Assembly: GCF_011630105.1 (NCBI RefSeq)
Contig: NW_022727368.1
Span: 169,157 to 233,156, forward strand
Direction of reading: 5' to 3'
Length of the DNA: 64,000 bases
Source of the DNA: Anneissia japonica
Lineage: Eukaryota
Both the position numbers and the translations under genes were made by a program. Numbering within the stretch: the first letter of the stretch is position 1; every line of letters begins with the position of its first letter. The notes beneath the pieces were generated by a model, which saw only the letters and a list, made by a program, of their open reading frames with translations, was not told the DNA's origin and searched no databases. Shown piece by piece: positions 26,563 to 64,000 of the stretch.

Positions 26563-26585
26563 TGTTCTTAAATGATCAGTTGCAA
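26563..26585 (+). CDS. PARP4: Possible 23-nt micro-exon (LQLVCLS, phase 0 in and 2 out) needed to restore frame between exons 6 and 7. Its donor CTG|gtaagtatctcactcatagaatac is a DIRS-terminus fragment.
   Basis: Inferred from the phase requirement and a strong donor. The acceptor (aaatgatcag|) is weak. Confidence 0.25.
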
Positions 26586-38881: not shown

Positions 38882-39167
38882 GTAAGATTGTGAAAGAAAT
38901 AAATACAAATATGAAGAAGAATTTATTCCTGAAGATGAACTAATAAAGTTCGAAATATAGAATCAACAATAGCTTGTATCACTTTTTTCAGAGTTTGTTT
39001 CATACTATCTTAAATATGGAGAACATAACACTAAAAAATGTTTATTAAAATATTTAAATGTAAAAAGAGCTGCTATTTAAGAAGTAATAAACCACTAAAA
39101 CATTGTACATAAGACTAAAAATGCTATTTTTAGTCTTATGTTTTTTTTTCAATAACTATTTATTTAG

Positions 39168-39267
39168 CAAAACGGCGAACAAACACTTGTTGAGGGCGAT
39201 AGCACGTGTTGGAACAGGCGCCTTTGAGTTCTTTGACACAGCCAGAAAGTCAAAATGGGCAAGGAAA
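39168..39267 (+). CDS. PARP4: PARP4-like exon 18 (SKTANKHLLRAIARVGTGAFEFFDTARKSKWARK), vWA.
   Basis: Acceptor tatttag| and donor AAA|gtaaga. Matches human STANRHVLRILSQCGAGVFEYFNAKSKHSWRKQ. Confidence 0.65.
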
Positions 39268-39329
39268 GTAAGAAATTAATTATCTTATTTCAAAACTTGA
39301 TGAATTGACATATTCTTTATAGTAAAAAA

Positions 39330-40350: not shown

Positions 40351-40502
40351 AAGCAAGGCAACCAGCACTGAGCAATGTGAGTGTGGAGTGGCAACAATCA
40401 GATGACAATGCCTCCAAACCCATCCAAGCTCCAGGACAGATAACATCCTTATTTAGCGGTTCACGCCAAGTAGTGTATGGGTATGTTCCATTCTGCAGAC
40501 AG
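40344..40502 (+). CDS. PARP4: PARP4-like exon 19 (LLKARQPALSNVSVEWQQSDDNASKPIQAPGQITSLFSGSRQVVYGYVPFCRQ).
   Basis: Donor CAG|gtaagg. Matches human SVSVKWQQLNPDVPEALQAPAQVPSLFLNDRLLVYGFIPHCTQ. The acceptor (agagtcag|) lies in the last unit of an upstream 3x ~340-bp tandem repeat. Confidence 0.55.
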
Positions 40503-41334
40503 GTAAGGCATCTTTATAATAATAATAATGTTATATTTATATAGACCATATTGCACATTACCCCTATGCACTTTACACAGAAATGATATAGACTAACCGA
40601 GAAAATACAAATAACAATAAAATAATAACTATATAATAAAATAAAAATAATAATCATAATAACAAAAATAACAATGATGCTAAACTACTTCTATTCCTTA
40701 AACTAATTAATGGTTGGCCGTTGACTCCGAGGAGCTCATCCGCCTTTTGTTCAGCTATTGGTTTTTCTTGCTGCTGGCTAACCAAAATCACCCTTCTCCC
40801 CCCCCCCCCCCCCAGCAGCCACTATGACATATCATGAGAGGCATATCTTCAAGTTATATTTATTAAATAATATTTTAAGTGAGTTTATTATTAACCTGTA
40901 ATCATGGTAAAAGTGTATTACAGTTAAAGACCACTTTTGGGCCTTTGATTTCCATGGGCTCTAGTTTTTTACAATAAGACGAGTCTACTAAATATTGTCA
41001 TGTGATCACACATGTGAGAATTAATTTTTTCATGTATTGTGTAATCCATTTTTGATCATATTCTTTACCAGTTATGCCTGTCTTACCTACTTTAAATACA
41101 GTATTATAAACAAAATTATTATTGACTCATGTGCTTCTTTATTTAAAATGTAATTTGACTTTCATTTCAATTCAATTCAATTCAATTAACATTTATTCAA
41201 TTAATTATAATAAATACATCAAGTGATAAAGAAAGTGGACAACATTAAAATTAATTAATTAGGATCAAAAATAGAAGCAAAGCTTGTCTCAATTTGACCC
41301 TGACAAAACAAAAAGTAAAAACTAATAATAAACG

Positions 41335-41735
41335 CATATCAGGTAGACCTACATTTTATATACAAATATATATATATATATATATACACATATATACATA
41401 TATACATACACACATGTACATACACACATACATACATATACACACACTTACATACACACACATACACCCCCATACATTCATGTAAATACACACACACACA
41501 TATACATAAACACATACATAAATGCACACACACACACACACACAAATCAACATATACACACTTATGCACACATATATATATACATACAATATAAATCATC
41601 AAAGGTACATATGCAGTGTTTAGATAAGGACATGATGGAACATCATAGGCTACCCTGTAGCTATTTAACAAATGTACATGTATATATGTTTGAATATCAT
41701 ACATATATACATAAACATACACATACATATATAAA
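41335..41735. repeat. Compound (CA)n/(TA)n/(CATA)n microsatellite.
   Basis: Direct inspection. Gives rise to the spurious ORFs 41294..41728. Confidence 0.9.
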
Positions 41736-42008
41736 ATAAAATAAAATATTTAAATAAAGTTAAGATTGCAAAGGTCCTTCTATTAAAAATTATAGTTAAA
41801 GATGTAGCAGTATTTAACATTATGCTTTAGAATATTCTTTTGCATATGGATTTACTTGCAGCATTTGGTCGACTGGCTTCACAGAATGATTATTTAAATG
41901 ATGCATACGAGTGGATCCATGGGGGGGGGGGGCGATAGTCATCATTAAGTCAAATGCATGGTCAGAGGTAAATCTCTATCATCATTGTTTATATTTTTTG
42001 TATTAAAG

Positions 42009-42089
42009 GCAACATTAAAAGCTGAAATTAATGGTGATGAAATCTCAACTATGGTATCTACCAATGAGCTTAGCGTAACAAGGGGCAAA
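42009..42089 (+). CDS. PARP4: PARP4-like exon 20 (ATLKAEINGDEISTMVSTNELSVTRGK).
   Basis: Acceptor tattaaag| and donor AAA|gtaagt. Matches human ATLCALIQEKEFRTMVSTTELQKTTGT. Confidence 0.6.
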
Positions 42090-42641
42090 GTAAGTTTGTT
42101 TTAGATTTTATTTTATGGCATATGAGAGCTATATAGAAAAAGTGAATCCATTTTAGGGTTAAAATGCATTTGAATCCCAGGCCGGAGTCTTGGGCTTAAT
42201 TCTTGTTAGTGACATATCACATGACAATTTAGGACTGCCAATTAAAAAATTGTAATGAGAGTTGTCTAGAGATCATAGGGTTTAATACCACATTTAGCAT
42301 GTAGAAGTGAATCCATCCTAGGGCAATTTAAAATAGCTTAAACAATACAGTAACAATGCAAGGCCATACAACTTATACTACATTTTGTATTACACTAGCA
42401 GTTAATACCTCTGTGTTCTGTATGCTTACATAATGGTTTACTAAATAATTTGATTATTGGTTTGTTTCATTGTGTCCGGCCTTTTGTGTTCGTATTTGTG
42501 AATCCATCGTAAGGTCACATTGTTGTTGGTCAATGAATGGCTCTCTAATGTTTGACCAATGAAATTTGCACATTATTATCACAGTTTTGGACTGCCAATT
42601 TTAATTTAATACAATTTTCGGTACTCATTTGTTGCCATCAG

Positions 42642-42824
42642 ATTCTTCATCAATTGACAGCAAGAGCCATTATTCGTGATTGGGAGGATGGAACCCTGGA
42701 TGTCAATCCAGTGGAGCATGACGTGAAGAAGGACGCACAGAAATCTTATATCATTGATCTCAGCAAAGAATATTCCATTGTGACGCAATTCACCAGCTTC
42801 ATCGCTGTTGAAGAACGAGATAAG
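42642..42824 (+). CDS. PARP4: PARP4-like exon 21 (ILHQLTARAIIRDWEDGTLDVNPVEHDVKKDAQKSYIIDLSKEYSIVTQFTSFIAVEERDK).
   Basis: Acceptor gccatcag| and donor AAG|gtttgt. Matches human MIHKLAARALIRDYEDGILHENETSHEMKKQTLKSLIIKLSKENSLITQFTSFVAVEKRDE. Confidence 0.75.
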
Positions 42825-43575
42825 GTTTGTACGGAAACAGGAGTATTAAAAAGATAGCATAAATTATTTACTGTTTATTATTTATTGAAATTGATGTAGC
42901 GCACACATCCAGAAAACTGCTCAAGGCGCTTTCTTTCCCCCCTGTTCATTGGATACAGAATCAGTCACAAACAATGTATACCCTCCTCTGCTCCTAAAAA
43001 AATGTTAATTTACCTATCAAAACAATGTTATTATGATACCACGCTATCAATTGTGCCATCCTTGTGGCCACAATTTAGTTCCCCAACTAAACCATTAAGT
43101 CACTATAATAGTCACCTCCTCTGTATTCACTAAATGCTTTACTGTCTTTTAATGTGTGTTAAACTTTGAAGGTCAAAGTACACTCTACGGCAAAGTACAG
43201 AATTTTCCTCTAAGCGTACTGCCAAATTGACCATCAGGATTTGCTCTGTAAAGGCCCAATTTAACCTTCATGGGTCGGCAAGGCCCGCTGGTTCAGATTA
43301 CATGATGAACGTATTTCAGTTACCGTAAAACGGCGTATTAGCAGTGTTTAGGGGATTTGGTATATAAAAATGGGATGATGTTGATACGGTGATGTTAACA
43401 CTGGGATGTCTGGTGTGGTTATGATTTGAATCGGCGAGCGACAGCCTTTTTATAGGCACATCACATGATTGTCGGCAATACGCTGCCATGAAATGTGCAT
43501 AAGGTGAGCATTCGTTGGTAAAAGTTTTCTAAAAGCTACCAGAACTATATATATTTTTTTTTTCATTTAATCTAG

Positions 43576-46479: not shown

Positions 46480-47348
46480 CAACAAAAACTCTCTTTGGAA
46501 AATAAATCTTTGTTTATTAAGGATCCCTACATGGAACCTCGAAAGTGCTAATCTGGCATGTGCTGATGATGTCATATACTTGGGTGTTAAATTCAGTAAA
46601 AATGTAAAAGGCAAAGCCCATGTTGATGATAGAATCAGCAAATGTCAGAGAGCTTTTTATACGTTAAAACATGGAGGTTAAAAGGTGCGGGCATGTGTAA
46701 ATGTAGGTTCGTCAACTGATGTCAAGTTACAGTACATGTCTTGAACACTGTTTTGGAACCGATCCTGAGTTATGTGGCCTACAATGCATAAATTTAAGTG
46801 TGAGCTCTTTACGAGAGTTGGAAAAAAAATCCAGATTAAATTGATTAAAGCATCATTAGGCCTTCCAAATCTCTGTGATAATCTTTAAGATCGTTGATAG
46901 TTAATTTTGTGTTTAAATTTTTCACCCATTCTTGACGATGGGCTTGTGGAAACCGATGGAGCTGGTAGGGCTGAATACAACAGGAGCAATCCTTGCGAAA
47001 AAATCCCTGGTTGGGACACAACTCGTTTTTCCATTGTTGAAGCTTAAATTGGCTATTACTGCAGCCATTCACCTGGCAAATCTTTCTTGCACCTTTTCCA
47101 CTCATTCTTTTATTCCGGAGAATAATGGCTTAAAGTATTTCACAAAAGAATTTAACAACAAAAGAAAACAATCGCTTCGCTACTCTACTTTACAGTAACT
47201 GTAATGTATGTAAAAGCATAGGCACTTCCGGGTATCACTGGTACACCGCGGTGTCGTTGTACCCCAGGCAAGGTTGCCAGGTTAACGAAAGTTTTCTATC
47301 CAATTATCGCGAAAATGGTGTATACAGCTCTTACTCATGGTCTTAATC
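46480..47348 (+). mobile_element. Degenerate non-LTR (LINE) reverse-transcriptase fragment (…NLACADDVIYLGVKFSKNVKGKAHVDDRISKCQRAFYTLK…).
   Basis: An xADD RT motif followed by a LINE-type downstream motif. Many stops. Ends at the adapter junction. Confidence 0.35.
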
Positions 47349-47386
47349 CTGTCTCTTATACACATCTAGATGTGTATAAGAGACAG
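47349..47386. other. Exact Illumina Nextera mate-pair junction adapter, CTGTCTCTTATACACATCT + AGATGTGTATAAGAGACAG (Tn5 mosaic end and its reverse complement, abutted).
   Basis: 38/38 nt identity to the junction adapter. This is a library-construction artefact, not native sequence. Confidence 0.9.
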
Positions 47387-48480
47387 GTTCAATGGCAATT
47401 TGAATACAAGAATCTAAGTTAAGTTAAATGGCAATTTGAATACAAGAATCTAAGTTAAGTTAAATGGCAATTTGAATACAAGAATCTAAGTTTTAAAGTG
47501 TATTTAGATTTTCATAATTTTTACAATTTTAATATATAATCTATGGTAGGTGGATGGGCATTCCATAATTAAACATATTTAAAACACATCCTTATATCAA
47601 CCGGGCCATCCATGCGACGTGCCCTATTAGTGGTAATGGCAGTAATTTACAGTCCTTTTTGAAACCCTTGTTTTTTTTTTGTAGGTGTAGGGGATCCCTG
47701 GGGACCAACTTAAAAAAGGCAATGAACGTTATTAACAACAAAAACAAGAAAAGGAGTTAGGTGCTTTTTTATAGTAGTAGCTTTTACTGGGACTAAACCT
47801 AATTGTCAGAATGACCGTAGTATCATGATATTATCAGGAGAATTAATTTATTTTAAATGATTTTAATGATTTAATTTGATATTCAGTTGTGGCAAGAAGT
47901 CCAAAACCAAAACTAAAAAACGTTTTCATTCAGTTAAAAGCAGAGGGTAAGTAAAAACATGAAGGTATTATAATACCTCCATGGTAAAAACACAAGTAGC
48001 TTGTAATTTGATGCATGCTACATTGTTTAATGGAGGAATAAGTTTAGAATGAAATTAAATTCATGTAAGAATTTAAACTAATTCCTCCATGATTGTATAT
48101 TGCACTTGTCTTGGTGGAGATTAACCAGTGATGGTATCAAATGACAGATTCTATAGGACAATGTATTGTTTACTTGTGCTAAACAAAGGAGTGCAGTCAT
48201 TTCATTAATGTAAAATTAGCAGAAAATATTGTGATTTAATGGTTAAAGGAATATATTGCTAACATAGCTGACATTCTGTTAAATAGATGTGCAGGATAAT
48301 GCACATCTAAATGATAGGAAGCTTTTGATTTGTGCAACAACGTGACACTAGGACTGATTCACTCATGCATGACCGCCCTGTATTCTTTGCACAACATATA
48401 TTTGGCCAAATTGCGTCCTGGAATTCACGCAACCCTGTGAACTGCACATTGTGATACTCATCAGCACTGAAAACATGCAA
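47387..48480. repeat. Segmental duplicate. 47387-47826 ≈ 51837-52252 and 47995-48480 ≈ 54665-55135 (each >95 percent), i.e. the two flanks of the DIRS element.
   Basis: Near-identical long matches by inspection. Begins immediately after the mate-pair adapter. Internal (aaatggcaatttgaatacaagaatctaagttaagtt)x3 mini-repeat. Confidence 0.7.
47887..47946 (+). CDS. PARP4: Array mini-exon (VVARSPKPKLKNVFIQLKAE), phase 1/1.
   Basis: Canonical ag/gt splice signals. Symmetric phase matches exon 24. Lies downstream of the adapter junction, so genomic placement is uncertain. Confidence 0.3.
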
Positions 48481-49374
48481 ATGTTATGAATTTGTGGGAG
48501 AAGGGTTACTTACCGGGAGATATTTGCTTAATGATTTCCGGGAGATTTCTATGAGTTTTGGTACACTCTAGAAAGGTCTATTCACAAGCAGAACAACCCC
48601 ACTGGAAATTTATCAATCAACTTTATTTCGGACTTTTATCCATGTAATAACAAATATAAATATAAAGATAAACCGCATTTATAGAAATTATAGAATACCT
48701 TTACAGATATTAATGCAATATAAAATGCCATTTAAAAAAACATTGAATATTTCAATATGCAACTGGCAATGCCTAAGACAGGGGAGTTTTCAGATGCAAA
48801 AATACTTGACATGACGTCTTACACTGATTTTCTTACCGACTTGAAAAACATAGTAACTTGCTGAGACAAACATGGTGCTAGCACTGCTTGCTTATGGTTT
48901 ACTAATATCAGTGCATTATTGTAGCATACTCTTCAACCAAGAAGCGCTATATAAGACCAACATATTATTATTATTATTATTATTAGCCCACAAAATTACA
49001 CATTAGAAATTCTTACATTAACTCCTGATTAGCATATTTTTATGCGTGAGTTTCACAAATACTGATCAACTCTCCAGCAAACGAAGAGGACATTAAAATA
49101 TCAGTGTTTGGACAATGTGGTTTATTCGTTTTATGTCAATGGTCTATAGCTTAATTAAGAAGATTTTATAGTATGTATAAATCATATTATCAATGTATTT
49201 GGTATTTTTCTTTTTTTTTTTTTTTTTTTTGTTAATTTATATGATTTACAAATCATAGTAAGGAGAACTAATCCATCATTGCCAATAAATATACCAATGT
49301 CAAAGGTTAACATTATAGACCATTTTTTAAAATCTGGTCAGATTCTTAAATGTTCTTTATTTTTTTATTTATAG

Positions 49375-49446
49375 ATCAGTACTGTTCATCCAAATCACAG
49401 AAAACCAAAGCAAGACTCCCTGATTTAAAAAAAAGTGTAAAAAAAG
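49375..49446 (+). CDS. PARP4: Array mini-exon (QYCSSKSQKTKARLPDLKKSVKK), phase 1/1.
   Basis: Acceptor tttatag| and donor AAAG|gtttgt. No stops in this frame only. Confidence 0.3.
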
Positions 49447-50369
49447 GTTTGTCTCATCTGTTTAAATTCCTTTGACCAGCATTTTGTTAGTACATACTCT
49501 CAGGGGAATGTTAGGCCAGTGGTGACACCATTGGGTTGGGAGGGGGTGGGAGCTCTTCTGCAATTTAATGGTGGCATTCCCATTTTAATTTCTATAGCTT
49601 CTTTTATTTTCCTTTTGAATGAATGAGTCTCTTCAGTTAGTGCTTTTATTTTATTCCAATTAATTGTCCAGTGATTTTACAATGTTCTGCTACCGCTGAA
49701 TGTATTTTAACACGTTGATTTAAATGTTCCTTGACACGTGTGTCTAATGATCTTGCGGTTTCTCTGATGTACGATTTTCCACACGTATCACACCAATAGT
49801 TGGCATGCACTTTTTTATCAAGTATAAGTAGGGTTGGAAATTTGCAACATACAGTATTTTTTGGCGATTCCTTTCCGGTTTGTTGTGGGAATTGGCGCGA
49901 AAAATGGTGTTTGTATAAGAGTTATTATTAAAGTGGGTGGGGTGGTGGTTGGAAATTATGAACATATTTTGGGAGATTTATTTTATAGAAAGGATTTTGC
50001 GGTGGGTGGTTATTGTTCTTACTACTCTTCTATACTTCTTATCCTCCTCCTTCTTTCGAATAATGCCAAAATTTTTAACCCATTTAGGCAACCGGCCTAT
50101 AGACCATCTATGGACTAAAGAGAGATTTGTTGTTAATAAACTTAAATAAGTGTATTAAATGACTATATTTAAACAAAGGCTAGTGGAAGAGCATTTCGAA
50201 TCTATGAACAAGGGTCAAAATATGAACATAGGGTCAAAAAGCATTTCGCAAACACAACCAAGCCAAAATCTACGGGTAATTTTTTTTTTTTTTTTTTTTA
50301 AATGCTGACCAACTAACCCCAATATAAGTTAATGTGTTATGTTAATTATCAATTCCTCATCATTTTTAG

Positions 50370-50420
50370 GCCGTGGGAAATCATCTGGACAACTAGAAAT
50401 TTACTATGAAGCGAAGATGC
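50370..50420 (+). CDS. PARP4: Array mini-exon (RGKSSGQLEIYYEAKM), phase 1/1.
   Basis: Acceptor atttttag| and donor ATGC|gtaagt. Paralogous in position to the 51430 unit. Confidence 0.3.
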
Positions 50421-50928
50421 GTAAGTATCACTCATCAATTCATAATTAATTAATCATAATTATTAATTATTTGTACAATGCTATTTCAAGTGTTCTTCCA
50501 TTATTTTCTTGTAAAAATTAAATAATATCAAGCAAAATTTATAATAATAATTAATAGTATATTAAAGCTTAAGGATCATTAGTTTAGAATAAATAATAAC
50601 TTCATGGATGAATTTAAACTAATTCCTCCATGATTGTATATTGCACCAGTGGCAGTGAACTTGAACCAGTGATGGTATCAAATGACATAGATTTCTATAG
50701 GACATTGGATTGTTTATTTGTGCTAAACAATGGAGTACATTTAATTTCATTGGTATAAAGTTAGCAGGAAATATTCAGATTGGTTGTTTAAAGTAATGTA
50801 TTGGGGTTTCCTTTTTGGGGTGTTGGGTGGGGTGAAAGATCGTGTTTGTTTAAGAGAAAAAATGAAACATATTTTTGGAGACATATAGAAATAGATTTGC
50901 AGTAAACAGACATATGCTCTGATTGCTC

Positions 50929-50934
<6 letters not shown>

Positions 50935-50996
<62 letters not shown>

Positions 50997-51065
50997 AGTA
51001 TTATTATTATCATTATTTTATTATTATTGTTATTATTTTTATTATTGTTCTTATTATTCTTATTC
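50935..51065. repeat. (ATT)n microsatellite, about 40 units.
   Basis: Direct inspection. Explains the poly-Ile ORF 50747..51013. Confidence 0.9.
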
Positions 51066-51429
51066 CTCTTTAAAATTCTTCTTATTTTATTGAATCGGAC
51101 ATTGCTCGACTTTTTAACACATTTTAGGCCACCAGCCCATAGAGTAACCTTAGACAGAACAGAGATTTGTTCTCAATCTAGTAGCAACATTGAGAAACTT
51201 AAATACATTTATTAAATGATTATATCTAAACAAAGGCATGTGGAAATGCATTTAGAATCTGTTAACCTAGGGTCAAAATTATATTTTCCATTGCCCAAAC
51301 ACAAAACCAAACCAAATTCTAGGGTATTCTTTTTCCTCTTTTTTTTTTTATTTTATAAGAAATGCTGACCAACTGACCCTGATATAAGTTACTGTGTTAT
51401 GTTATTTATCAATTTTTTTTTATTTGTAG

Positions 51430-51486
51430 CTCGTGAGAGATCTTCTAAAACAAAAGTAAATCTCCGTTCTTTAGAATTGGAATGTA
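51430..51486 (+). CDS. PARP4: Array mini-exon (RERSSKTKVNLRSLELEC), phase 1/1.
   Basis: Acceptor tatttgtag| and donor TGTA|gtaagt. The flanking intron sequence is paralogous to the 50370 unit. Confidence 0.3.
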
Positions 51487-52252
51487 GTAAGTACAGTGTC
51501 ACTCTTACCAAATCATAATTAATTAACCATAATTGTTAATTACTTGTACAATGCTACTTCCTGTCTGCTTTCATTATTTTCTTGTAAAAACTTAATAATA
51601 TCTAGCAAAATTTATAATTAATAAATAAATAATAATAAATTAAATATTAAAGATATAATAAGAATTATTGATTAAAGAGAGGATAATCTTGGCAGCATCA
51701 GTCTCAGAAGTGAAAGTTCAAAGATGAAGAGAGTTCCATAATTTTGAAAACTTACTTTAGCAATTTGAAGTTTAGTAGGTGAAAAAGTGAAAACCTACTT
51801 AAATGGCAATTTGAATACAAGAATCTAAGTTAAGTTAAAAGTTCAATGACAATTTGAATACAAGAATCTATGTTAAGTTAAATGGCAATTTGAATACAAG
51901 AATCTAAGTTTTAAAGTGTATTTAGAGTTTCATAATTTTTGCAATTTTAATATATAATCTATGGTAGGTGGATGGGCATTCCATAATTAAACATATTTAA
52001 AACACATCCTTATATCAACCGGGCCATTCATGCGACGTGCCCTATTAGTGGTAATGGCAGTAATGTACAGTCCTTTTTGAAACCCTTGTTTTTTTTTTGT
52101 AGGTGTAGGGGATCCCTGGGGACCAACTTAAAAAAGGCAATGAACGTTATTAACAACAAAAACAAGAAAAGGAGTTAGGTGCTTTTTTATAGTAGTAGCT
52201 TTTACTGGGACTAAACCTAATTGTCAGAATGACCGTAGTATCATGACCATTG

Positions 52253-54685
52253 TTCCCAAAACGGAACACCCCTTCGAAAAAAAATGGAACAGTCCGACCC
52301 AAGGCGCCACGTGCGAACCGTCTCCCTAACAAACGTCCTCATTCCCTTTTTGACGTTGTTCGAAGTCGGATACATTCTAGCCTTTGAAAATTACTAGCAG
52401 ACTTTTCAAGCAATTCTGTTCTCCTTGGATTTATTTTTGCTTTGGATTTATTTTTGCCTTGGATTTATTTTCAACTTGTGGTTGACAAGATATCCTTTTT
52501 ATTGTAGTCTCGTACGTATCAGTTCAAAGTTCTTCCCTTCGGTCTATCCACAGCTCCTCGGGTGTTTACACGGGTGGTAAAATCCCTAGGTGCAGTGTTC
52601 CATGCGAGAGGGATACGTATTTTCATGTACCTAGACGACTGGCTCGTGTTCGCAAATTCCCGAGCAACTCTGTTGCATCATCTCAGCATTGTCTTAGACA
52701 TGACGGAAACAGTAGGGTTCATTATCAACCGGGAGAAATCGGTTTTGGTTCCCACGCAACTTCCGCTGTATCTGGGGGCGCACATCGATCTTGTTAGTTC
52801 AGTGGCGTTCCCCTCCACGAGTCGGATCCGCAAGTGCCAGCTAGCAATCACTCAGCTTCTTTCCCTTCCGGATTCCCCAGCCGAGTCGTGGCTGCGGATG
52901 TTGGGGTTTCTCGCGAGCCTGGTAGACCTAGTTCCTTATTGCCAGCTTCATATGCGCCCTCTTCTACTGCATCTGCTCGCGTTTTTCTCTCCAGCATCTC
53001 GGGACTTGTCAGCTCAGATTCCCTTGAATGCATTTGTCGCCAGGCACCTCCGGTGGTGGCTTCAGGGGAACGTGCTTCAGGGTTCCCCGACCCTCTCCCC
53101 GTCTTTCGCTCACGGAACGCGTCGTGGGGGACTGGTCGCTGGAAGAATCCACCAGTCACATAAACGTTCTGGAGCTTTTAGCAGTTCGTCGGTCTCTGGA
53201 GGCCTTCGTCGATCGGGCAAAGGGGAAAGCTATGCTAGTTCATTCCGAAAGTTCAACCGTGGTCTCCTACATCAACCATCAGGGCGGCACGCATTCACTA
53301 ACGCTATGCTTCCATACATGGCAGCTCCTGCTTTGGTGTCTCAGCCATCGCATTCATCTTCGAGCAGCTCACATTCCCGGCCGACTGAATGTCCTCGCTG
53401 ATGTGCTGTCTCGACGTCAGTTACCTCCACTCCGTCCGACGGAGTGGAGGCTGTGTCCGGTCGTGGCCCAGCATATTTTCAACACGTTTGGGCGTCCCAA
53501 CCTAGATCTGTTTGCGACGAGCTCGAACACTCAGCTTCCGACGTTTTGCTCCCGGTTTCCGGAACCAACAGCGTGGGCAGTGGATGCCCTGTCCATCTCA
53601 TGGGACGGGTTTTGGGCTTCGGGTTCCCGCCCTTATCGCTTCTTCCGAGGGTGATGGCGCACATCCGTCGCCCCCCATTGCAAGGTTCTCCTGATAGCGC
53701 CATGGTGGGCCCGCCAGGGTTGGTTCCCACTTCTGCTGAGTCTTCTCTTCGAGCATCCCTGTGTGTTGCCGGTTCATCCGGACCTTCTTCAACAGGCCCG
53801 GTCGTGGGTCGGCCTGAACCATTTAACATCGCTGAACTTGACTGTTTGGCCCTTATCCGGGATAATCTCCAAGGTTCAGGCATTCCAGATGGCCCTGCCG
53901 CCATCTACAACAGTCGCCTTAAGCACTTCCTCCTGTGGTGTACCGATCACGAAGTGGATCCTATGTCAGCCTCTCTGGGTCAGGTGTGTCTCTTTTTGCA
54001 TTATCTGTTTGAGTCGGGTCTCAGATTCGCATTTGTTTGTGTCTTCAGTTCGGCCCCACGGGCCTGCTTCTGTTGATACCATTGCTCGCTGGGTGGTTTC
54101 GGCCATCCAAGCTGCTATGCGTCGGCTCGCAAGCCGCCGCCTGCCCACATGCATGAGGTTCGCGGCACGGCGGCTTCTTGGGCTCTCTTTTACGGGGTCC
54201 CCCCTCGCCGACATTCTGGCAGCGGCATGGTGGAGATCGGAGACTACATTTTCATCTTGCTACTTGTGGGATGTCTTGTCGACCCAGGCGTCAGTAGCGG
54301 CTGCTGTGTTGAAGCCGTCTCTGTAGGTAAGTCTTCTGGTTTCTGATCACGCCCGCCTCCTCTTTACGCTGCTAATCTGGCAATTAGTCGGTTATCCAGG
54401 TAAGTATTCACAAAGTAGACTACACAAATCAATCGTGATGTTGGTAGTCTATGAGTGAGATACTTACCTGGATAACCTTCCCTCCCTTCCTACCCTCGCC
54501 GTGATCGTGTCGATCTTTAGGGAATGAGGACGTTTGTTAGGGAGACGGTTCGCACGTGGCGCCTTGGGTAGGACTGTTCCATTTTTTTTTTCGAAGGGGT
54601 GTTCCGTTTTGGGAACAATGGCAATTAGTCGGTTATCCAGGTAAGTATCTCACTCATAGACTACCAACATCACGATTGATTTGTG
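52253..54685 (+). mobile_element. Truncated, frameshifted DIRS-like tyrosine-recombinase retroelement. RT (YLDDW), RNase H (HINVLELLAV), the AFPPF…APWWPRQGWFP region and a YR domain (HEVRGTAASWA … AGRWRSETTF … Y).
   Basis: Inverted terminal repeats 52253-52355 and 54521-54623 are reverse complements of about 103 bp. An internal complementary hairpin lies at 54371-54490. ORFs 52562..54326 sit in three frames. Confidence 0.7.
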
Positions 54686-55216
54686 TAATTTGATGCATGC
54701 TACATTGTTTAATGGAGGAATAAGTTTAGAATGAAATTAAATTCATGGAAGAATTTAAACTGATTCCTCCATGATTGTATATTGCACTTGTCTTGGTGGA
54801 GATTAACCAGTGATGGTATCAAATGACAGATTTCTATAGGACAATGTATTGTTTACTTGTGCTAAAGAATGGAGTGCAGTCATTTCATTAATGTAAAATT
54901 AGCAGAAAATATTGTGATTTAATGGTTAAAGGAATATATTGCTAACATAGCTGACATTCTGTTAAATAGATGTGCAGGATAATGCACCTCTAAATGATAG
55001 GAAGCTTTTGATTTGTGCAACAACGCGACACTAAAACTGATTCACTCATGCATGACCGCCCTGTATTCTTTGCACAACATATATTTGGCCAAATTGCTTC
55101 CTGGAATTCACGCAACCCTGTGAACTCAACGTTCTCGCATTCCCAAATGACTTCATGAGGACAGCTCGCTTAACATCCAGATGCTACATCTTTTATCAAT
55201 TCTTTATCTTTTTTAG

Positions 55217-55264: not shown

Positions 55265-56189
55265 GTAAGTATCATTCTTATCAATGCATAATTAATTAAT
55301 CATAATTATCAATTACCTGTGCAATGTTTCTTCAGGTCTTTTTTCATTCTTTTTCTTGTAAATATTTCTTGAAATCCACATATCCTGGAATTTACACATC
55401 CGAAAATGCTTATCAGGTCAACAAGGACACAAGTTCACATCCACACCTGTCCACTACTATATCGTATTGCACGTAAACACATTGGTAGTTGTCATCAGAA
55501 TGCTAACTCCCATCTTTGAATAGAGTTTTTCTTATTGAGGTTTCTCGAAAGTGTCCCCTTGATTAGGAGTTCCACTGCATATCGAAGTACTGTAGTGTCT
55601 CGTAACAAAAATATGTTACTATTTGATAAGCATACTTATTAAAAAAAATAATTATCTAAAGTAGCTTTTCAAAGATTTGTTGATTTCCATCATTTTCATC
55701 TGACTGTTAATTATGACAGTGGTTGCTAGCACCTTTCTCATGTTTTGATTCGATAATGCCCACTATTTTAGCTAGTAGGCACTAAAGGGTAAATGCCCGT
55801 CAATAGTAGGTCTAGACAAATAAGGAGCACAGGATGCGAATGAGTAACACAACACCGTAAAGTTTCTAAAATTACAAGACCAAAACAATTCAACAAACAT
55901 CTGTCTGACTAAGATTATAGTATGCTGCCGGCGCAAATTACTAACAATAGCTAATATGTTATCAAGTTATTTTATTTAAGAAATGTTTTTTTTTTCGATG
56001 TTTTCATAGGAATCTTCTGATTTTTACAGTATATAATTTTAACACTTAAGCTTTTCTGTATAATTTTTTTGAGATGAGACCCAGATGCAATCCAACTACA
56101 CTCAACAATTCACTCACGACCCAAACTTGGGTTGCCGATGGGTTGCCGATGTTAGATCTAGAGGTGCTATGTACATAAAATTGTGTACC

Positions 56190-56300
56190 TAACCCCAGCC
56201 ATGGTGGGGCTCATGTAGTGTAGAACCTTCATTTGTCATAGTTCTTCCCTGCACCCCCTCTATTTCAAATTCCTGGATTTTCCATTGTTCCCCAAGTTCA
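56190..56300. repeat. Dispersed short repeat family with core CCATGGTTGGGGCTGAGG … CTCTATTTCAAATTCCTGGAT. At least 10 copies (5285-5400, 19330-19480, 20395-20530, 30940-31090, 36700-36830, 56520-56650, 56810-56950, 57175-57300, 58085-58220, 61030-61450).
   Basis: Recurrent conserved blocks in both orientations. One copy accompanies each mini-exon unit at 56-58 kb. Confidence 0.5.
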
Positions 56301-56373
56301 GTACAATAATGAATGCAGAACTTGAGACCGGTGATGTTTAATTTATTTTTATTATTGTATTAATTAGATTCAG

Positions 56374-56421
56374 CTCTCTCACGTCCATTGTCTGACCTTA
56401 GTATGAAGGATGAAGAAAATG
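56374..56421 (+). CDS. PARP4: Array mini-exon (LSRPLSDLSMKDEEN), phase 1/1.
   Basis: Acceptor ttagattcag| and donor AATG|gtaagt. First of four 48-nt paralogues. Confidence 0.35.
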
Positions 56422-57016
56422 GTAAGTATAAATAAAAGTGACTTGTACAGTATTATTGTGATCAGATATTCTTATTACTGGACAGCAGACAAAAACTAAA
56501 GTCTTATAGTGCCATGTCTGGTCATCTAGAGGTGCTATAATCATAAATTGTTGGGGCTGAAGTGATCTAGACCCCCCCCCCATCTGTGAAAGTCCCTTCC
56601 TGGACCACTCTATTTGGAATTCCTTGATCCGCCAATGACACCCGTGGTCCATATGTTCACTAGTCTTTATATGATTCATTGGTCAATGATCAATGTTATT
56701 TTTTTTTTAAATATTCTCTATTGTATCTGTAGATGCTTTTCTGTACTTTTCACTCACGACCCAAACCTGGGTCACTACCCATGGGTTGCCGATGTTAGAT
56801 CTAGAGGTGCTATGTACATAAAATTGTGTACCTAACCCCAGCCATGGTGGGGCTCATGTAGTGTAGAACCTTCATTTGTCAAAGTTCTTCCCTGCGCCCC
56901 CTCTATTTCAAATTCCTGGATTTGCCATTGTTCCCCAAGTTCAGTACAATAATGAATGCAGCACTTGAGACCGGTGATGTTTAATTTATTTTTATTATTG
57001 TATTAATTAGATTCAG

Positions 57017-57064
57017 ATATCTTACCTCCAATGCATATGCTTAGTATGAAGGATGGAGAAAGTG
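57017..57064 (+). CDS. PARP4: Array mini-exon (ILPPMHMLSMKDGES), phase 1/1.
   Basis: Identical splice context (attagattcag| … |gtaagtataaataaaagtg) to the 56374 unit. Confidence 0.35.
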
Positions 57065-57381
57065 GTAAGTATAAATAAAAGTGACTTCTATTATTGTGAT
57101 CTGATATTCTTCTTACTAGACATCACACAAAAACCACCCAAAAAAAGTCTTAGAAATGCCATGTCTGGTCATCTAGAGGTGCTATAATCATTAATTGTTG
57201 GGGCTGAAGTGATCTAGACCCCCCCCCATCTGTGAAAGTCCCTCCCTGGACCACTCTATTTTGAATTCCTAGATCCGCCAATGACACCTGTGGTATCATT
57301 GACTAGTCTTTATATGATTCGTAGGTCAATGATCAGTGTCAATGATCAATTTTTTTTTATTATTGTATTAATTAGATTCAG

Positions 57382-57429
57382 CTATGGCACAACCAACCCG
57401 AATGCGTAGTTTTGAGGAAGAAGACAATG
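57382..57429 (+). CDS. PARP4: Array mini-exon (MAQPTRMRSFEEEDN), phase 1/1.
   Basis: Same unit structure as the other 48-nt paralogues. RMRSF followed by an acidic tail. Confidence 0.35.
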
Positions 57430-57568
57430 GTAAGTAAAAATAAAAGTGGTTTGTATTATTGTGATCAGATTTTATTCTTATTGGAAATCAGACAAAAACC
57501 ACTAAGGATGATTTGTAGGTCAATGATAAGTGCTATTTTTTTTTTAATGTTCTCTATTGTATCTGTAG

Positions 57569-57613
57569 ATGCTGATGAGCCGAATCATAGTGCCTTTTTC
57601 TGGAGAGCCAGAG
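57569..57613 (+). CDS. PARP4: Array mini-exon (ADEPNHSAFFWRAR), phase 1/1.
   Basis: Acceptor atctgtag| and donor AGAG|gtttgt. A paralogous copy at 56737 is disrupted by a SINE. Confidence 0.3.
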
Positions 57614-58276
57614 GTTTGTAACTGCTTTTGTTTTCTTGTAAATATTTTATCAAAATAAATTACTCTTTTATTAGTACTGTACTTCATTTTTACATTTACG
57701 TGCATACAAGTCGATAAGGAATTTGTATACAGAGAAACTGTGAAAATATTGCACTTTCAAGTTTCTAAAACTACAAGACCAAAACAATTCAACAAACGTC
57801 TGTCTGACTGAGATTATTGTATACTGCTGGCACAAATTAAAGACAATAGCCAATATGTTATCAAATTATTTTATTTTTAAGAAATGTTTTGTTTCGATGT
57901 TTTCACAGGAATCTTCTGGTTTTTACATTAATTTTAACACTTATGCTTTTCTGTATAATTTTTTGAGATGAGACCCAAATGCGATCCAACGACACTCAAA
58001 AATTCACTCACGACCCAAACTTGGGTCACTACCCATGGGTTGCCGACCGTAGATCTAGAGGTGCTATAAACATAAATTGTGTACTAACCCTAGCCATGGT
58101 GATGCTCATCAGGTAGTGCTAAGAACCTTCATTTGTCAAAGTCCCACCCTCCCCCTCTATTTCAAATTCCTGGATTTGCCACTGTTCCCCTATTTTCATT
58201 ACAATAATGAATACAGAACTTATTTGGGACCTGTCATGTTTAATTTTTTTTTTATTATTGTATTAATTAGATTCAG

Positions 58277-58324
58277 CTAGGGCACGACCAACACGAATGC
58301 GTAGTTTTGGGAAAGAAGAAAACA
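58277..58324 (+). CDS. PARP4: Array mini-exon (RARPTRMRSFGKEEN), phase 1/1.
   Basis: Same unit as the 57382 exon, at 78 percent nucleotide identity. Confidence 0.35.
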
Positions 58325-59825
58325 GTAAGTAAAAATAAAAGTGGTTTGTATTATTGTGATCAGATATTATTCTAATTGGAAATCAGACAAAAACCACCAA
58401 GGACAATAACCACCAGACAAACACCAACCAAAACTGATTATACCATTGTTAAAGCGGGGTGGACAGTTGGGTAGACTTGTATATATCTAGCTATACAATA
58501 GGATAGTTTACATTCTGACTTCCTATTATACACTTATAGAAAAATACTTGCTTCCTAGCCTAGCCTACCATCCCACTAGGTACCCATTTATACTTAATTA
58601 TTATACAAATTATTGATCGCACAGAACTCCTCAGATGTTATTTTCGGGCATATAGAATACAAAATTTTCCTGGGGTAGTGTTGTCTCTCGATCGCACCCC
58701 CTCTGGCCTTTCGAACATCTATGGATCTGCTCCTGATAGGGAGCTGTCGATTTGCACAAGGACGCAACTCTTGAACAGATTCAGCCACTGCACTACATAG
58801 ATTTGGTCAAATTGCATTCTAGAATCCACACGACCAGGAGAGCTTAACATTTTCGCATGCACAGATGACTTTTCAGTGACGTCCTTACATTCCACATCCC
58901 ACCACGTTATGGTGCTAACGTCCCAGACCTATTAAAAACTGATCAATAAATCAAAGACTTTCTAGAATGGATTGTCATGTTCCAAGGAAGGAATGATTAA
59001 ATTTTGTTAACGATTTGGAGTAGGTGTGGATATGAGGGCTATATAAAGGGAACTTCCCAGGCCAGATGTTTTAAAAATAATAAATGTGGTAAAGACAAGC
59101 CAAACCAGTCACACATCGCAAATTGTGTTTCAGAGAAAATAGCAAAAACATACTAGAATGTAAAATTTTTTTTAATCTATTTTATTTCACTAAACTGAGG
59201 TTTATGTACAGTATGTATACATCATGCTGTGCTGATATTTTTCCCAATTTCTATGTTAAAACAACACTTTTAAAAGATTTTATGATTGTTTCTGCATGAG
59301 AAATGCCTGAAATCATAAACTTTGAAGGCTGATTTCTCATATATTGTTCTTTAAACAGCTGTATGCTTAAATGCTTGTAACTTCATAAGTAAATGTTGGA
59401 TTTGAATGATTTTTTTACCATTTCATAGCTCTTATTTTACTCTTTAACCCTGTATTAATAACAACGAGTGACTGGTTTGGCTTGTCTTTGCCAATGCATC
59501 TGAAAACCTTTCTGGATTTTTTCATCATGGCTAAAGAAAATAGTATGCATTAGGGTGTGTATGTGGAAACCCTTAAAATTGAACGTCCCAGACCTAAATA
59601 TCTCAAAGACTGATCAATGAATCAACTGAATGAAACTTTCTAAAATGGTCTGTCATGGTTGATCTAAGGAACAATGATCAAAGGCTCCCAGTAGCTACCA
59701 GATCGCACATAACTAATAATGCATTCATATGAGCCAGTTGGTTATGTTCACTTTGTAAGCAAAAGCTCTCAGTTTCAATGGAGATTGAGAATGTTTTTCA
59801 TTCTTTAAATTTTTTTTTTCCCAAA

Positions 59826-62035: not shown

Positions 62036-64000
62036 GTTTGTACTTCTTGTGTTTTCTTGTAATATAAAATGTTAAAGGCTGCGTTTATACAGCACTTATT
62101 ACTTTACGTTTTGTTATTTTTTGCTGCGAACCTTGGCCCAATGTTTCCGATATGTTATTTGATGAGAATCAGATAATTTATCAGAAGCAGCTCCAAAATA
62201 CTAAAAAAAATTAACTTTTGACCAAGGTCAAATTTCGGTACTGTACACACACAGAATTATTTTTTGGAACTTTAATTTGTGCGAATGTTCTCAGGCAACT
62301 AGGCCTATTATCAAAACACTTTAATAAATAGTGAGTAATTTTTTTCCGGCTTATTATTAAAAAAAAGACTTGACATCCACGGTGCAGCCCAGCTACCCTG
62401 GGCCTAGGTCTGACCATATTGTATATTGTACCGTAAAATACACCAATGCTGCATTCATTTTCGTTGATACTTCAAAATATATATATGTTATCTTTTTTTT
62501 TTTGTCTTAACTTTTTTTTTCATTTTCTTTCTTGTGTTTTCTTTTCTTTTCCTTACCTTTTCTCTCTTATGTTTCCTTATCTTTTTCTTCCCCTTTTCTT
62601 TCTTATGCTTCCTTTTTATTTTCATTTCTTTACTTTCTTATGTTTCCTTGACATATCCTTTTCCTTGTTAGTAGTATATTAAGAAATTTAATATTATTTG
62701 GCAATTCAAAATACTGAAGAAGAGTAAAGTACAAATTGAGTTTTTGCTTTAGTTAGTGAGTGTACTATTAATTAGTTAGTGAAGAATCTTTTTATTTGTG
62801 CGACGACGTGACACTAGAAAGGATTCACGCATGCGTGATCGTTCTATATTTTCTGCACAACGTTCTCACATGCGCCAATGACTTTATGTGATGCCATTAC
62901 ATTCTACCGTCGTCGTGAAATTGAAAGTTCCCTATTACTTTTTCTATAATTGCTGTTGCTGATGTTTGTTATAGTGGAAAAGTATTTTATTATAGAATGA
63001 AATATCAGTTGTTTTTTTTTTTTTCATAAAAAAAAAACAATTGAAGTTTGCCATCCCAAAACCTGCATCAGCAACCAAAAAATGATATTGACTTTTTGAT
63101 ATTCACATTCTCCACATTATAAACTTTAAATTGATGGGTAATTTACTGGAATCGACTGACTGTTGCCAAAGTTGTGAGTGAAAGTATTTTGTCACTGTGC
63201 ATATTATTTTGTCTTTATTTTATTTGTAGATATACTATGTGATATGTTATCCCGTGGATCATCATCTCCCCAACTTGGTGCCAATGGTTTGTAACTTCTT
63301 GTGTTTTCTTGTAAAATAAAATGTTTTGGGCTCTGTTTCTGCAGGACTTACTACTTTACATTTTGTTATTTTTCATTGCAAACCTGTGCTCAAAGTTTCC
63401 TATATATTACTTGATGAGAATCAGATAATTTATCGGAAACAACTCCAAAATACTAAAAAAATTTAACTTCTGACCAAGGTCAAATTACAGTTCAGTACAC
63501 GCAAAGAATTTTTTTGTACCCGTGGGAACTTCTTTAATTTGTGAAAATGTTTGTTAGGCAACTAGGCCCAGTATCTTTTCAGTCAGTCAGTCAACAGTAG
63601 ATTTTCTTTGTAGCAAGTCAATAATCCAATCAATCCTGGGACTGTGGTTATTGGCATGAGTTGCAGAGTGGAAACACATTCTTCTTAGGTCAATATTAAA
63701 ATTAGGATATTTCTCTTGGACAGATGATGAGAGCTCCGATCCCTGGACAGACAGGATTATTACCAGCTTTATTTTACATATTTGTCTATACTTAGTCCTA
63801 TCCTCTTTTTCTTTTTCCGACCTTTAGCACATTCTCATCTGAGTTTTAAAGAAAAAATAGAATGATCCTGCCATCCTGCTAATCTTAATCGAGCTGATGG
63901 CCCCAACAAGCTAACCACCACCCACCACTACTAATTACATCTGCTATCTTGCTGTTATGTAAATATTCACGCATTCTTGTCATGAGCCATGTTCTTTGGA

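What the first reader, a model, noticed from the sequence alone, without database searches (positions are those of the whole stretch)
47387..55135. Two copies of the DIRS flanks, one with the element and one with a 170-bp mini-exon segment instead
Flank A (47387-47826 ≈ 51837-52252) and flank B (47995-48480 ≈ 54665-55135) occur twice. In the upstream copy, 170 bp (47827-47994, containing a mini-exon) lies between A and B. In the downstream copy the 2.4-kb DIRS element does. The pattern is either a segmental duplication followed by replacement or insertion, or an assembly artefact given the adjacent adapter.
Basis: seen in the sequence. Interest (0 to 1): 0.5.

Follow-up and report, generated by a model that had tools for sequence, protein, structure and literature searches.

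The report
DIRS empty/filled site pair beside adapter
The same 1-kb stretch really occurs twice, once intact and once carrying a dead DIRS-type retrotransposon. The upstream copy starts exactly at a synthetic sequencing-library adapter, so its placement is partly an assembly error, and the whole thing is ordinary transposon and assembly biology.

Summary
Confirmed. A1 47387-47828 matches A2 51799-52246 (96.9% across the alignment), and B1 48002-48443 matches B3 54684-55126 (97.7%). Between A1 and B1 lie 173 bp. Between A2 and B3 lies a 2,441-bp DIRS1-like element (52247-54687).

New points:
- An exact 38-bp Nextera mate-pair junction adapter (47349-47386) abuts the first base of A1. That edge is a false join.
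- The element's internal complementary region predicts a left tip (~40 nt) that is missing. Its right end meets the host at a GTA that is present in the empty copy. So the "replacement" is an integration at GTA plus a ~215-bp deletion across the left junction.
- The right edge of B1 (48443|48444) cuts a dispersed repeat that continues intact after B3. The upstream copy is therefore the truncated one.
- The "mini-exon" has no support.

The element's closest relative (89%) is from the crinoid Anneissia japonica. That genome was built with Platanus, 2-18 kb mate pairs and GapCloser.

Paralogue versus allele cannot be settled without reads. I lean to a young, partly collapsed ~4.4-kb tandem duplication (0.5) over a misplaced other allele (0.33). 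Interest is low.

The parts
47349..47386 (.). Nextera/Tn5 mate-pair junction adapter, CTGTCTCTTATACACATCT + AGATGTGTATAAGAGACAG. It is synthetic and palindromic, and marks a false join made during assembly or gap closing.
   Evidence: Exact 38/38 match, unique in the window, 0 expected in shuffles. The two halves are listed as the mate-pair junction adapters in bioRxiv 10.1101/443036.
47387..47828 (+). Flank A, upstream copy (A1). It starts inside a 36-bp tandem repeat (47387-47492, 2.9 units).
   Evidence: 96.9% to 51799-52246. TRF result.
47829..48001 (+). The 173-bp host segment present only in the upstream ('empty site') copy. It is absent from the DIRS-bearing copy.
   Evidence: Alignments. 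No other copy in the window. No Rfam hit. No support as an exon.
48003..48005 (+). GTA in the empty site (AGCTT-GTA-ATTTG). This is the inferred DIRS integration point, identical to the last 3 nt of the element (54685-54687).
   Evidence: The 3-bp circular-junction integration model is described in PMC3266345.
48002..48443 (+). Flank B, upstream copy (B1). It ends abruptly at 48443|48444, inside a dispersed repeat.
   Evidence: 97.7% to 54684-55126. Other copies of the repeat (35214-35304, 62784-62861) continue like B3 and not like B1.
48444..51798 (+). The 3,355-bp segment between the copies (M). Under the tandem-duplication reading it is the first part of the ~4,418-bp repeat unit. It contains older diverged tandem units and an ~82% copy of B at 50578-50803.
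   Evidence: Start-to-start spacing of the A copies is 4418. Older repeats.
51799..52246 (+). Flank A, downstream copy (A2), in its natural context. Homology to the older unit continues to its left.
52247..54687 (+). A DIRS1-like retrotransposon copy, 2,441 bp, 52% G+C against 32% for the 1,057-bp upstream block (47387-48443). It is dead: no gag, the N-terminal part of RT is missing, there are several frameshifts through RT-RNaseH-MT-YR, and about 40 nt of the left tip are missing.
   Evidence: Pfam RVT_1 E=3.7e-14. The stitched pol is 89% identical to an Anneissia japonica protein and 45-50% identical to asteroid (sea-star) proteins. Three-frame translation. G+C.
52247..52347 (+). Left inverted terminal repeat, truncated at its outer end.
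   Evidence: 97% complementary to 54519-54621. The reverse complement of the left ICR predicts 40 more nt that are not present.
54379..54477 (+). Internal complementary regions. The left ICR (54379-54420) is complementary to the predicted left tip. The right ICR (54421-54477) is 100% complementary to 54631-54687.
   Evidence: (I2).
54519..54687 (+). Right terminus: conserved ITR 54519-54648, divergent tip 54649-54661, right extension 54662-54687 ending ...TTGTGTA.
   Evidence: The layout matches the 'ITR / divergent tip / rE / ICR' scheme of PMC3266345.
54684..55126 (+). Flank B, downstream copy (B3). Its first 4 nt (TGTA) are shared with the element's end. It continues naturally into the rest of the dispersed repeat (55127-55158).

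Best explanation
One ~1-kb stretch (A, 173 bp, B) is present in two states.

The downstream copy sits in its natural context and carries a dead DIRS1-like retrotransposon. The element integrated by tyrosine-recombinase-type recombination at a GTA, exactly at the 173-bp|B boundary. One deletion of about 215 bp then removed the 173-174 host bases to its left together with the first 40-43 nt of the element.

The upstream copy keeps the empty site but is only a fragment:
- Its left end is a synthetic mate-pair junction adapter. This is a false join made when a gap was closed, and the 38-bp adapter probably acted as a universal repeat in a small-k local assembly.
- Its right end (48443|48444) is a sharp adapter-free breakpoint. 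A gap filler or de Bruijn assembler can only write such a junction if reads span it.

That junction is what the head-to-tail joint of a tandem duplication looks like. The unit would be 48444-51798 + A + 173 bp + B, about 4.4 kb without the element.

I therefore think the genome, or at least one haplotype, carries a young tandem duplication with roughly 2% divergence. The short-read assembler collapsed most of it. The gap filler then rebuilt only the last 1,057 bp of the first unit and sealed the rest with the adapter.

What is shown:
- the repeats;
- the adapter;
- the element's anatomy;
- the truncated polarity of the upstream copy.

What is inferred:
- the order of integration and deletion;
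- read support for the 48443|48444 junction;
- the missing first part of unit 1.
For: - Repeats and their edges.
- The adapter is exact and unique, and it abuts the first homologous base, inside a 36-bp tandem repeat where assemblies tend to break.
- Polarity: the dispersed repeat inside B continues after B3 as in its other copies (35214, 62784). After B1 it is replaced by unrelated sequence.
- B1 keeps its own variants up to 28 bp from the breakpoint, and no 20-mer spanning 48443|48444 occurs elsewhere in the window. I found no in-window sequence that would let a k-mer assembler jump there by mistake.
- The A spacing of 4418 bp equals unit M + A + 173 bp + B.
- The locus already has older tandem units.
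- Element anatomy: ITRs, ICRs and rE match the DIRS1-like scheme and the 3-bp junction integration model of PMC3266345. RT hit; pol homologues.
- Pipeline: the nearest relative of the element is in Anneissia japonica (89%). Its published assembly used Platanus (k=69, bubble removal), six 2-18 kb mate-pair libraries and GapCloser 1.10 (PMC7351957). Earlier GapCloser releases are said to make wrong choices between similar repeats (PMC3626529).
Against: - No reads are available, so neither copy number nor the 48443|48444 junction is verified.
- The expected first 3.4 kb of unit 1 is absent from the assembly and must be assumed collapsed.
- About 2% divergence plus presence/absence of a transposon is also what two alleles of a heterozygous marine invertebrate look like.
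- False haplotype duplications near gaps made up 4-16% of the older vertebrate (platypus and bird) assemblies examined in PMC9516828.
- Host genes did not confirm the species, so the pipeline argument rests on one transposon match.
- My claim that a gap can only be closed through shared k-mers rests on my own knowledge of these programs. It was not tested here.
Confidence: 0.5

Rival explanations
1. False haplotype ('heterotype') duplication. The individual is heterozygous at a single locus. One allele is A-173 bp-B, and the other carries the DIRS element plus the deletion. The assembler kept the DIRS allele in place. The other allele, which had no home in the collapsed assembly, was scaffolded or gap-filled into a gap 4.4 kb upstream and sealed on the left by an adapter-containing read.
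For: - The adapter lies exactly at the copy's edge.
- The block is small (1,057 bp) and both its ends lie in repeats: a 36-bp tandem repeat and a dispersed repeat.
- Divergence of 1.4-2.3% with a large indel is the kind of difference that stops alleles from being merged.
- The documented pipeline is heterozygosity-aware Platanus plus GapCloser with mate pairs (PMC7351957).
- False heterotype duplications were common in the older assemblies examined and are associated with gaps (PMC9516828).
Against: - It does not explain the clean junction 48443|48444. The allele's true continuation should be like 55127 onwards. A gap filler that failed to reach the right-hand contig would leave Ns, and there are none in the window.
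- An accidental k-mer bridge would need a truncated repeat copy ending in the same 25-28-mer directly in front of 48444. Other family copies are only 74-81% similar.
- The usual pattern has the gap between the two copies, not outside them.
Confidence: 0.33
2. A composite gap-fill product. The block 47349-48443 is a patchwork made by greedy local assembly. Part of it comes from a real short B-like remnant in front of 48444, and part from reads of the other allele or of the downstream copy. As a whole it corresponds to no real molecule.
For: - The adapter shows that the local assembly accepted at least one non-biological path.
- Exact runs shared by the copies reach 181 bp in A and 117 bp in B. 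These exceed any gap-filler k and also the Platanus k of 69, so phase switches are possible.
- GapCloser 1.10 is described as prone to wrong choices between similar repeats.
Against: The differences from the downstream copy are spread evenly along A and B, right up to 28 bp from the breakpoint, with no visible switch point. This reading needs more coincidences than either of the other two.
Confidence: 0.1
3. The assembled order is entirely correct apart from the adapter. It would be a dispersed, non-tandem duplicate of just A-173 bp-B, inserted between the upstream region and 48444. The adapter would replace only a few bases.
For: Both internal junctions of the block are clean, and the locus has a history of local duplication.
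Against: - The duplicate would have to begin, by coincidence, exactly where a Tn5 cut and a false join occurred.
- In a genuine single mate-pair read, the sequence after the junction adapter lies upstream of the sequence before it. The flanks of the adapter therefore cannot be true neighbours (protocol geometry, my own knowledge).
Confidence: 0.05

Closest known systems
DIRS1-like tyrosine-recombinase retrotransposons (Piednoel et al. 2011, PMC3266345)
   Same: - Inverted terminal repeats.
- Two internal complementary regions near the 3' end that mirror the two tips.
- A right extension.
- RT-RNaseH-MT pol order.
- Integration at a 3-bp sequence shared with the target, and no target-site duplication at the readable junction.
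- The family is already known in echinoderms.
   Different: - This copy is a 2.4-kb wreck rather than a 5-6 kb element. It has no gag, a truncated RT, frameshifts and a YR reduced to remnants.
- The left tip is missing.
- The inferred junction trinucleotide is GTA, not the usual NTT.
False heterotype (haplotype) duplications in short-read assemblies (Ko et al. 2022, PMC9516828)
   Same: Two near-identical copies on one scaffold, differing at allelic-level divergence and by a large indel, next to a badly closed gap.
   Different: The closed gap lies outside the pair rather than between the copies. The inner junction (48443|48444) is seamless. Read depth and haplotype k-mers, which are the defining tests, could not be run.
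Untrimmed Nextera mate-pair junction adapter in an assembly
   Same: The exact CTGTCTCTTATACACATCT|AGATGTGTATAAGAGACAG palindrome, as listed for mate-pair filtering in 10.1101/443036.
   Different: Nothing differs. It is simply library contamination that survived into the consensus.
Young tandem segmental duplication with a transposon insertion in one copy (paralogous empty and filled sites)
   Same: A head-to-tail junction (end of B joined to the start of the 48444 segment), about 2% divergence, and one copy preserving the pre-insertion state.
   Different: Only the last quarter of the first unit is present in the assembly, so the tandem structure is inferred rather than seen.

Membership tests
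DIRS1-like retrotransposon | Reverse transcriptase of the DIRS/Ty3-related type, followed by RNase H and the 'MT' domain | tested here: met
   Pfam RVT_1 E=3.7e-14, C-terminal half only. The stitched 507-aa RT-RH-MT translation finds 888 homologues at E<=1e-10. The best is 89% identical (Anneissia japonica) and sea-star proteins are 45-48% identical over 85-89% of the query. The MT domain has no Pfam model; it is covered only by these alignments.
DIRS1-like retrotransposon | Inverted terminal repeats | tested here: met
   52247-52347 against 54519-54621, 97% complementary.
DIRS1-like retrotransposon | Internal complementary regions that mirror both tips, plus a right extension | tested here: met
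   The right ICR (54421-54477) is 100% complementary to 54631-54687, which includes the 26-nt extension. The left ICR (54379-54420) mirrors the inner ITR and predicts a left tip that this copy has lost.
DIRS1-like retrotransposon | Tyrosine recombinase ORF | tested here: inconclusive
   There is no Pfam hit at E<=5 for the stitched C-terminal region. Only by-eye remnants (H-x-x-R ... Y) appear across frameshifts.
DIRS1-like retrotransposon | gag ORF and full length of about 5-6 kb | tested here: not met
   The copy is 2,441 bp. The sequence between the left ITR and mid-RT is about 150 bp with a 17-bp tandem repeat. It is therefore a deleted, non-autonomous copy of the family, not an intact member.
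DIRS1-like retrotransposon | Integration at a 3-bp sequence identical to the circle junction, without target-site duplication | tested here: met
   Right junction only. The element ends ...GTGTA and the empty site reads CTT-GTA-ATT. The left junction was destroyed by the deletion.
Nextera mate-pair junction adapter | Exact 19+19-nt Tn5 mosaic-end palindrome | tested here: met
   38/38 at 47349-47386. Sequences as given in 10.1101/443036.
False heterotype duplication | Half (haploid) read depth on both copies and haplotype-specific k-mers | not testable with these tools
   No reads are available. These criteria come from PMC9516828.
False heterotype duplication | An assembly gap associated with the duplicated pair | tested here: inconclusive
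   A falsely closed gap (the adapter) borders the upstream copy on its outer side. No gap or adapter lies between the copies.
Tandem duplication | Head-to-tail junction joining the end of the unit to its start | tested here: met
   B ends at 48443 and is joined to 48444, the start of the segment that precedes A2. The spacing of 4418 bp fits a unit of that segment plus A, 173 bp and B.
Tandem duplication | Two complete units present | tested here: not met
   Nothing resembling 48444-51798 lies upstream of A1. The adapter and unrelated sequence are there instead. This could be due to collapse in the assembly, which is not testable here.

The most novel reading that the evidence does not exclude
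The empty/filled pair may record a non-canonical DIRS integration. In that reading, a 5'-incomplete cDNA was joined correctly at its 3' end (GTA crossover), while its left end was joined by repair with simultaneous loss of about 174 bp of target. This would resemble the 5' truncation with target deletion seen in LINE-1 insertions. It would fit the proposal that DIRS elements amplify through linear single-stranded cDNA (PMC7192593, title and abstract seen) rather than always through a complete circle.
Probability: 0.12. Interest if true: 0.4.

Novelty: already known. Interest (0 to 1): 0.17.

Why it matters
Mainly as a quality warning.

- This scaffold contains library adapter sequence, and at least one false join lies 240 bp upstream of an ORF.
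- The apparent local duplication should not be counted as gene or repeat content without checking the reads.
- Other adapter-sealed gaps are likely elsewhere in the same assembly.

There is a small biological bonus. The pair gives a base-resolution view of a DIRS1-like integration site in a crinoid-type genome. It shows a GTA shared between target and element end and no target duplication at the readable junction. This agrees with the published 3-bp junction model.

Tried and rejected
- **Host-gene identification of the species.** The 786-aa ORF had no homologue. The VIT/VWA exon hit only ENA contigs of a distant relative, with exons at ~74% nt and nothing usable in intergenic DNA.
- **Independent contigs across the junctions.** Exact-protein look-ups were tried for the ORF spanning 48443|48444, a DIRS ORF, the 786-aa ORF and the A. 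japonica protein. None is on record.
- **The 'mini-exon'.** There is no conservation (the related contigs extend only ~7 kb past the last shared exon), no RNA family, and the pattern is common by chance.
- **B as a coding exon.** I first read B's right half as a minus-strand exon. Its other copies (35214, 62784) do not keep a reading frame, so it is a dispersed non-coding repeat.
- **The 173 bp as a DIRS remnant or a copy of something else.** No similarity was found.
- **A transposon inserted into B1 at 48443, with the rest of B further on.** No B continuation follows.
- **A single chimeric mate-pair read explaining the left join.** The geometry is wrong: the sequence after the adapter should lie upstream. 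It is resolved if the 38-bp adapter acted as a shared repeat between two genuine junction reads in a k<=31 local assembly. This is inference.
- **THAP-like and GIY-YIG-like ORFs seen by eye.** Neither has a Pfam hit.
- **tRNA or SINE origin for A.** No tRNAs were found.
- **Heterozygosity rate and library type.** They were not found in the main text or the held supplementary files of the A. japonica paper.


Full report
**1. The observation.**

A self-comparison of the window confirms both repeat pairs.
- 47388-47828 matches 51799-52246 at 96.9% over 448 columns.
- 48002-48443 matches 54684-55126 at 97.7% over 443 columns. Both have E = 0 (repeat finder families D2, D3, D6 and D7).

Base-level alignments show how the copies differ.
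- Flank A has six substitutions and a 7-bp length difference inside a 36-bp tandem repeat.
- Flank B has nine substitutions and one 1-bp indel.

Between the upstream flanks lie 173 bp (47829-48001). Between the downstream flanks lie 2,441 bp of G+C-rich sequence, 52% against 32% for the upstream block 47387-48443.

**2. The left edge is synthetic.**

At 47349-47386 there is an exact 38-nt palindrome, CTGTCTCTTATACACATCT|AGATGTGTATAAGAGACAG. It occurs once in the window, and none is expected by chance. These are the two halves of the Nextera mate-pair junction adapter, as listed for read filtering in bioRxiv 10.1101/443036.

Homology between the two A copies starts at the very next base (47387), inside a 36-bp tandem repeat. 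So the left boundary of the upstream copy is where a Tn5 transposase cut a DNA fragment, not a biological breakpoint. The adjacency of ...47348 and 47387... is false.

In a genuine single mate-pair read, the sequence after the junction lies upstream of the sequence before it (protocol geometry, my own knowledge). That does not fit this assembly. The simplest resolution is that two ordinary junction reads were linked through the adapter. One read ended at 47348 and one began at the A repeat. The adapter is 38 bp, which is longer than the k-mer of a local gap filler. This step is inference.

**3. What the inserted element is.**

The 2,441 bp carry the following features.
- The C-terminal half of a reverse transcriptase (Pfam RVT_1, E = 2.5e-8 and 3.7e-14).
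- RNase H- and 'MT'-type sequence, followed by remnants of a recombinase. These are spread over three frames with several frameshifts.
- A stitched 507-aa translation finds 888 homologues. The best is an uncharacterised protein of the feather star Anneissia japonica at 89% identity. Next come metagenome proteins at up to 50% and sea-star proteins at 45-48%.

The termini are the informative part.
- 52247-52347 is 97% complementary to 54519-54621.
- 54421-54477 is 100% complementary to 54631-54687 (I2).
- Reverse-complementing the region 54379-54477 gives [...GGTTATCCAGG...GATTTGTGTA][GTCTACTTTGTGAATACTTACCTGGATAACCGACTAATTGCC].

The first half of that string is the observed right end of the element. 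The second half should be its left tip.

This is the DIRS1-like architecture described by Piednoel et al. (PMC3266345). It comprises inverted terminal repeats, two internal complementary regions that mirror the tips, and a right extension.

Here the conserved ITR is about 130 nt, the divergent tip 13 nt, the right extension 26 nt, and the ICRs 42 and 57 nt. These values are of the same order as the examples tabulated in that paper.

The copy lacks gag and the N-terminal RT, and Pfam does not recognise its recombinase. It is a dead, internally deleted member of the family.

**4. Why 173 bp are 'replaced'.**

- The predicted left tip is not in the window. The copy starts at CCATTGTTCCC, 40 nt in from the tip.
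- The element's right end is ...TTGTGTA (54687).
- The empty copy reads AGCTT-GTA-ATTTGATG (47996-48013), and the filled copy reads ...TTGT-GTA-ATTTGATG.

The published model has the element integrate by recombination between a 3-bp junction sequence and an identical 3 bp in the target, without target-site duplication (PMC3266345). Here GTA fits that role.

The integration point is therefore the right-hand edge of the 173-bp segment. The segment and the missing tip are adjacent. A single deletion of about 215 bp across the left junction turns 'A-173 bp-[full element]-B' into what is seen. That deletion removes 173-174 host bases plus 40-43 element bases.

This is an inference, but it accounts for both oddities at once. 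A one-step aberrant integration with target loss is a less likely alternative.

**5. Which copy is the original.**

The right half of B belongs to a dispersed non-coding repeat, with other copies at 35214-35304 and 62784-62861.
- Those copies continue past the B3 boundary in the same way as 55127-55158.
- The sequence after B1 (48444 onwards) is unrelated.
- To the left, A2 runs on into sequence that is homologous to an older neighbouring unit (51042-51654 matches 50010-50576 at 71%).

So the DIRS-bearing copy sits in its natural context. The upstream copy is a 1,057-bp fragment cut at both ends.

**6. Paralogue or allele?**

The probable source matters. The published A. japonica assembly was made as follows (PMC7351957):
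- short-insert Illumina libraries plus six 2-18 kb mate-pair libraries;
- Platanus with k = 69 and bubble and branch removal for heterozygosity;
- GapCloser 1.10 for gap filling;
- adapter filtering, described only as removing reads with more than 10 bp of adapter sequence.

The SOAPdenovo2 paper says that the earlier GapCloser could make wrong choices between similar repeats (PMC3626529). Species identity rests on the transposon match only. Host ORFs gave no same-species hit.

With such a pipeline, two 97-98% identical copies cannot both come from the de Bruijn contigs. The copies share exact runs of up to 181 bp, longer than k. The upstream block is therefore most likely a gap fill. There are two readings.

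(a) **Other allele.** The block is the DIRS-free allele of a single heterozygous locus, written into a nearby gap. False haplotype duplications made up 4-16% of the older vertebrate (platypus and bird) assemblies examined, and they are associated with gaps (PMC9516828).

(b) **Real second copy.** The junction 48443|48444 is seamless and adapter-free, and there is no N anywhere in the window. B1 keeps its own variants to within 28 bp of the junction. No 20-mer spanning the junction occurs elsewhere in the window.

The allele reading has no read path from the end of B into 48444. The true continuation of that allele would be like 55127 onwards, and an unclosed gap would leave Ns. That closure needs shared k-mers is my own knowledge of these tools and was not tested.

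A head-to-tail tandem duplication of the unit 48444-51798 + A + 173 bp + B supplies exactly that junction. The unit length of 4,418 bp equals the observed spacing of the A copies. An assembler would collapse such a duplication, leaving a gap filler to walk from 48444 leftwards through B1, the 173 bp and A1. It would then stall in the 36-bp repeat and escape through an adapter read.

Weighing the higher prior for false duplications against the junction argument, I put the readings at:
- real, partly collapsed duplication: 0.5;
- misplaced allele: 0.33;
- patchwork fill: 0.1;
- assembled order essentially correct: 0.05.

**7. The 'mini-exon'.**

The segment is TTCAG|TTGTGG...GCAGAGG|GTAAGT with two open frames. 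Nothing supports it as an exon.
- The plus-strand VIT/VWA-type gene has conserved exons only from 32767 to about 43.7 kb, judged against two contigs of a related species. Those contigs reach only about 7 kb past the last shared exon, so the comparison says little about the 173 bp itself.
- No RNA family matches 44-58 kb.
- Under a stricter splice-site filter, 15 chance 'mini-exons' occur in the window, and this one fails that filter.

**8. Verdict.**

- The repeat is real in the sequence.
- The DIRS call is right.
- The adapter shows that the upstream copy's left context is an assembly error.
- The difference between the copies is an ordinary integration plus deletion.
- Whether the genome holds one or two copies needs the reads.
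- Nothing here lies outside known transposon biology or known assembly failure modes, so interest is low.

Noticed in passing
window 26538-26650: A solitary fragment of the right terminus of the same DIRS family (78% to 54572-54691). It ends in ...ATGTAATTT, so ATTT also follows the element's end at this second site.
   Followed up: partly
window 32767-42854 (+), possibly to 43758: Exons of a VIT/VWA-type gene, conserved at 55-83% amino-acid identity with two low-coverage ENA contigs (L001, L002; sample ERZ25070167) from a related but different species. The region holding the finding appears to lie downstream of this gene.
   Followed up: partly
window 260-12325 (-): A run of very long open reading frames (786, 347, 454, 179, 139 and 124 aa), rich in Cys and N-x-S/T motifs. 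The 786-aa ORF has no homologue in the 5.8-billion-protein database, and the 454-aa ORF has no Pfam domain. It is probably a fast-evolving extracellular protein gene.
   Followed up: partly
window 50010-51654 and 55265-55366: Older tandem structure around the finding. 50010-50576 matches 51042-51654 (71%). There is an 82% copy of the first half of B at 50578-50803. An 86-nt motif occurs three times (50421, 51495, 55265). Relative to the older unit, the unit holding A2 carries an extra ~790-bp block (144 bp + A + 173 bp + 30 bp) of unknown origin.
   Followed up: partly
window 35214-35304, 48318-48443, 55001-55158, 62784-62861: A dispersed non-coding repeat family, 74-81% identical between copies and with no conserved reading frame. 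The right edge of the upstream flank B falls in the middle of one copy.
   Followed up: yes
window 46845-47105 (-) and 49646-49810 (-): Two short ORFs that looked by eye like a THAP-type zinc finger and a GIY-YIG nuclease remnant. Neither has a credible Pfam hit; the best E-values (0.02-0.07) are for unrelated families and lie below their cutoffs. The adapter lies about 240 bp upstream of the first ORF's ATG.
   Followed up: partly
window 50929-51064; 55860-58400; 39355-40366; 38132-38557 with 59073-59493; 4599-4752, 12689-12800, 21208-21336, 35984-36088: Other repeats:
- an (ATT)n microsatellite of about 45 units;
- a tandem array with a ~643-bp period (83-89% identity);
- a ~339-bp tandem repeat (85-88%);
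- an inverted 425-bp pair 21 kb apart (91%);
- a ~100-bp dispersed element in both orientations (84-90%).
   Followed up: no
window 52423-52471: A 17-bp tandem repeat (2.9 units) inside the DIRS copy, between the left ITR and the truncated RT. This is where the internal deletion that removed gag and the N-terminal RT must lie.
   Followed up: no
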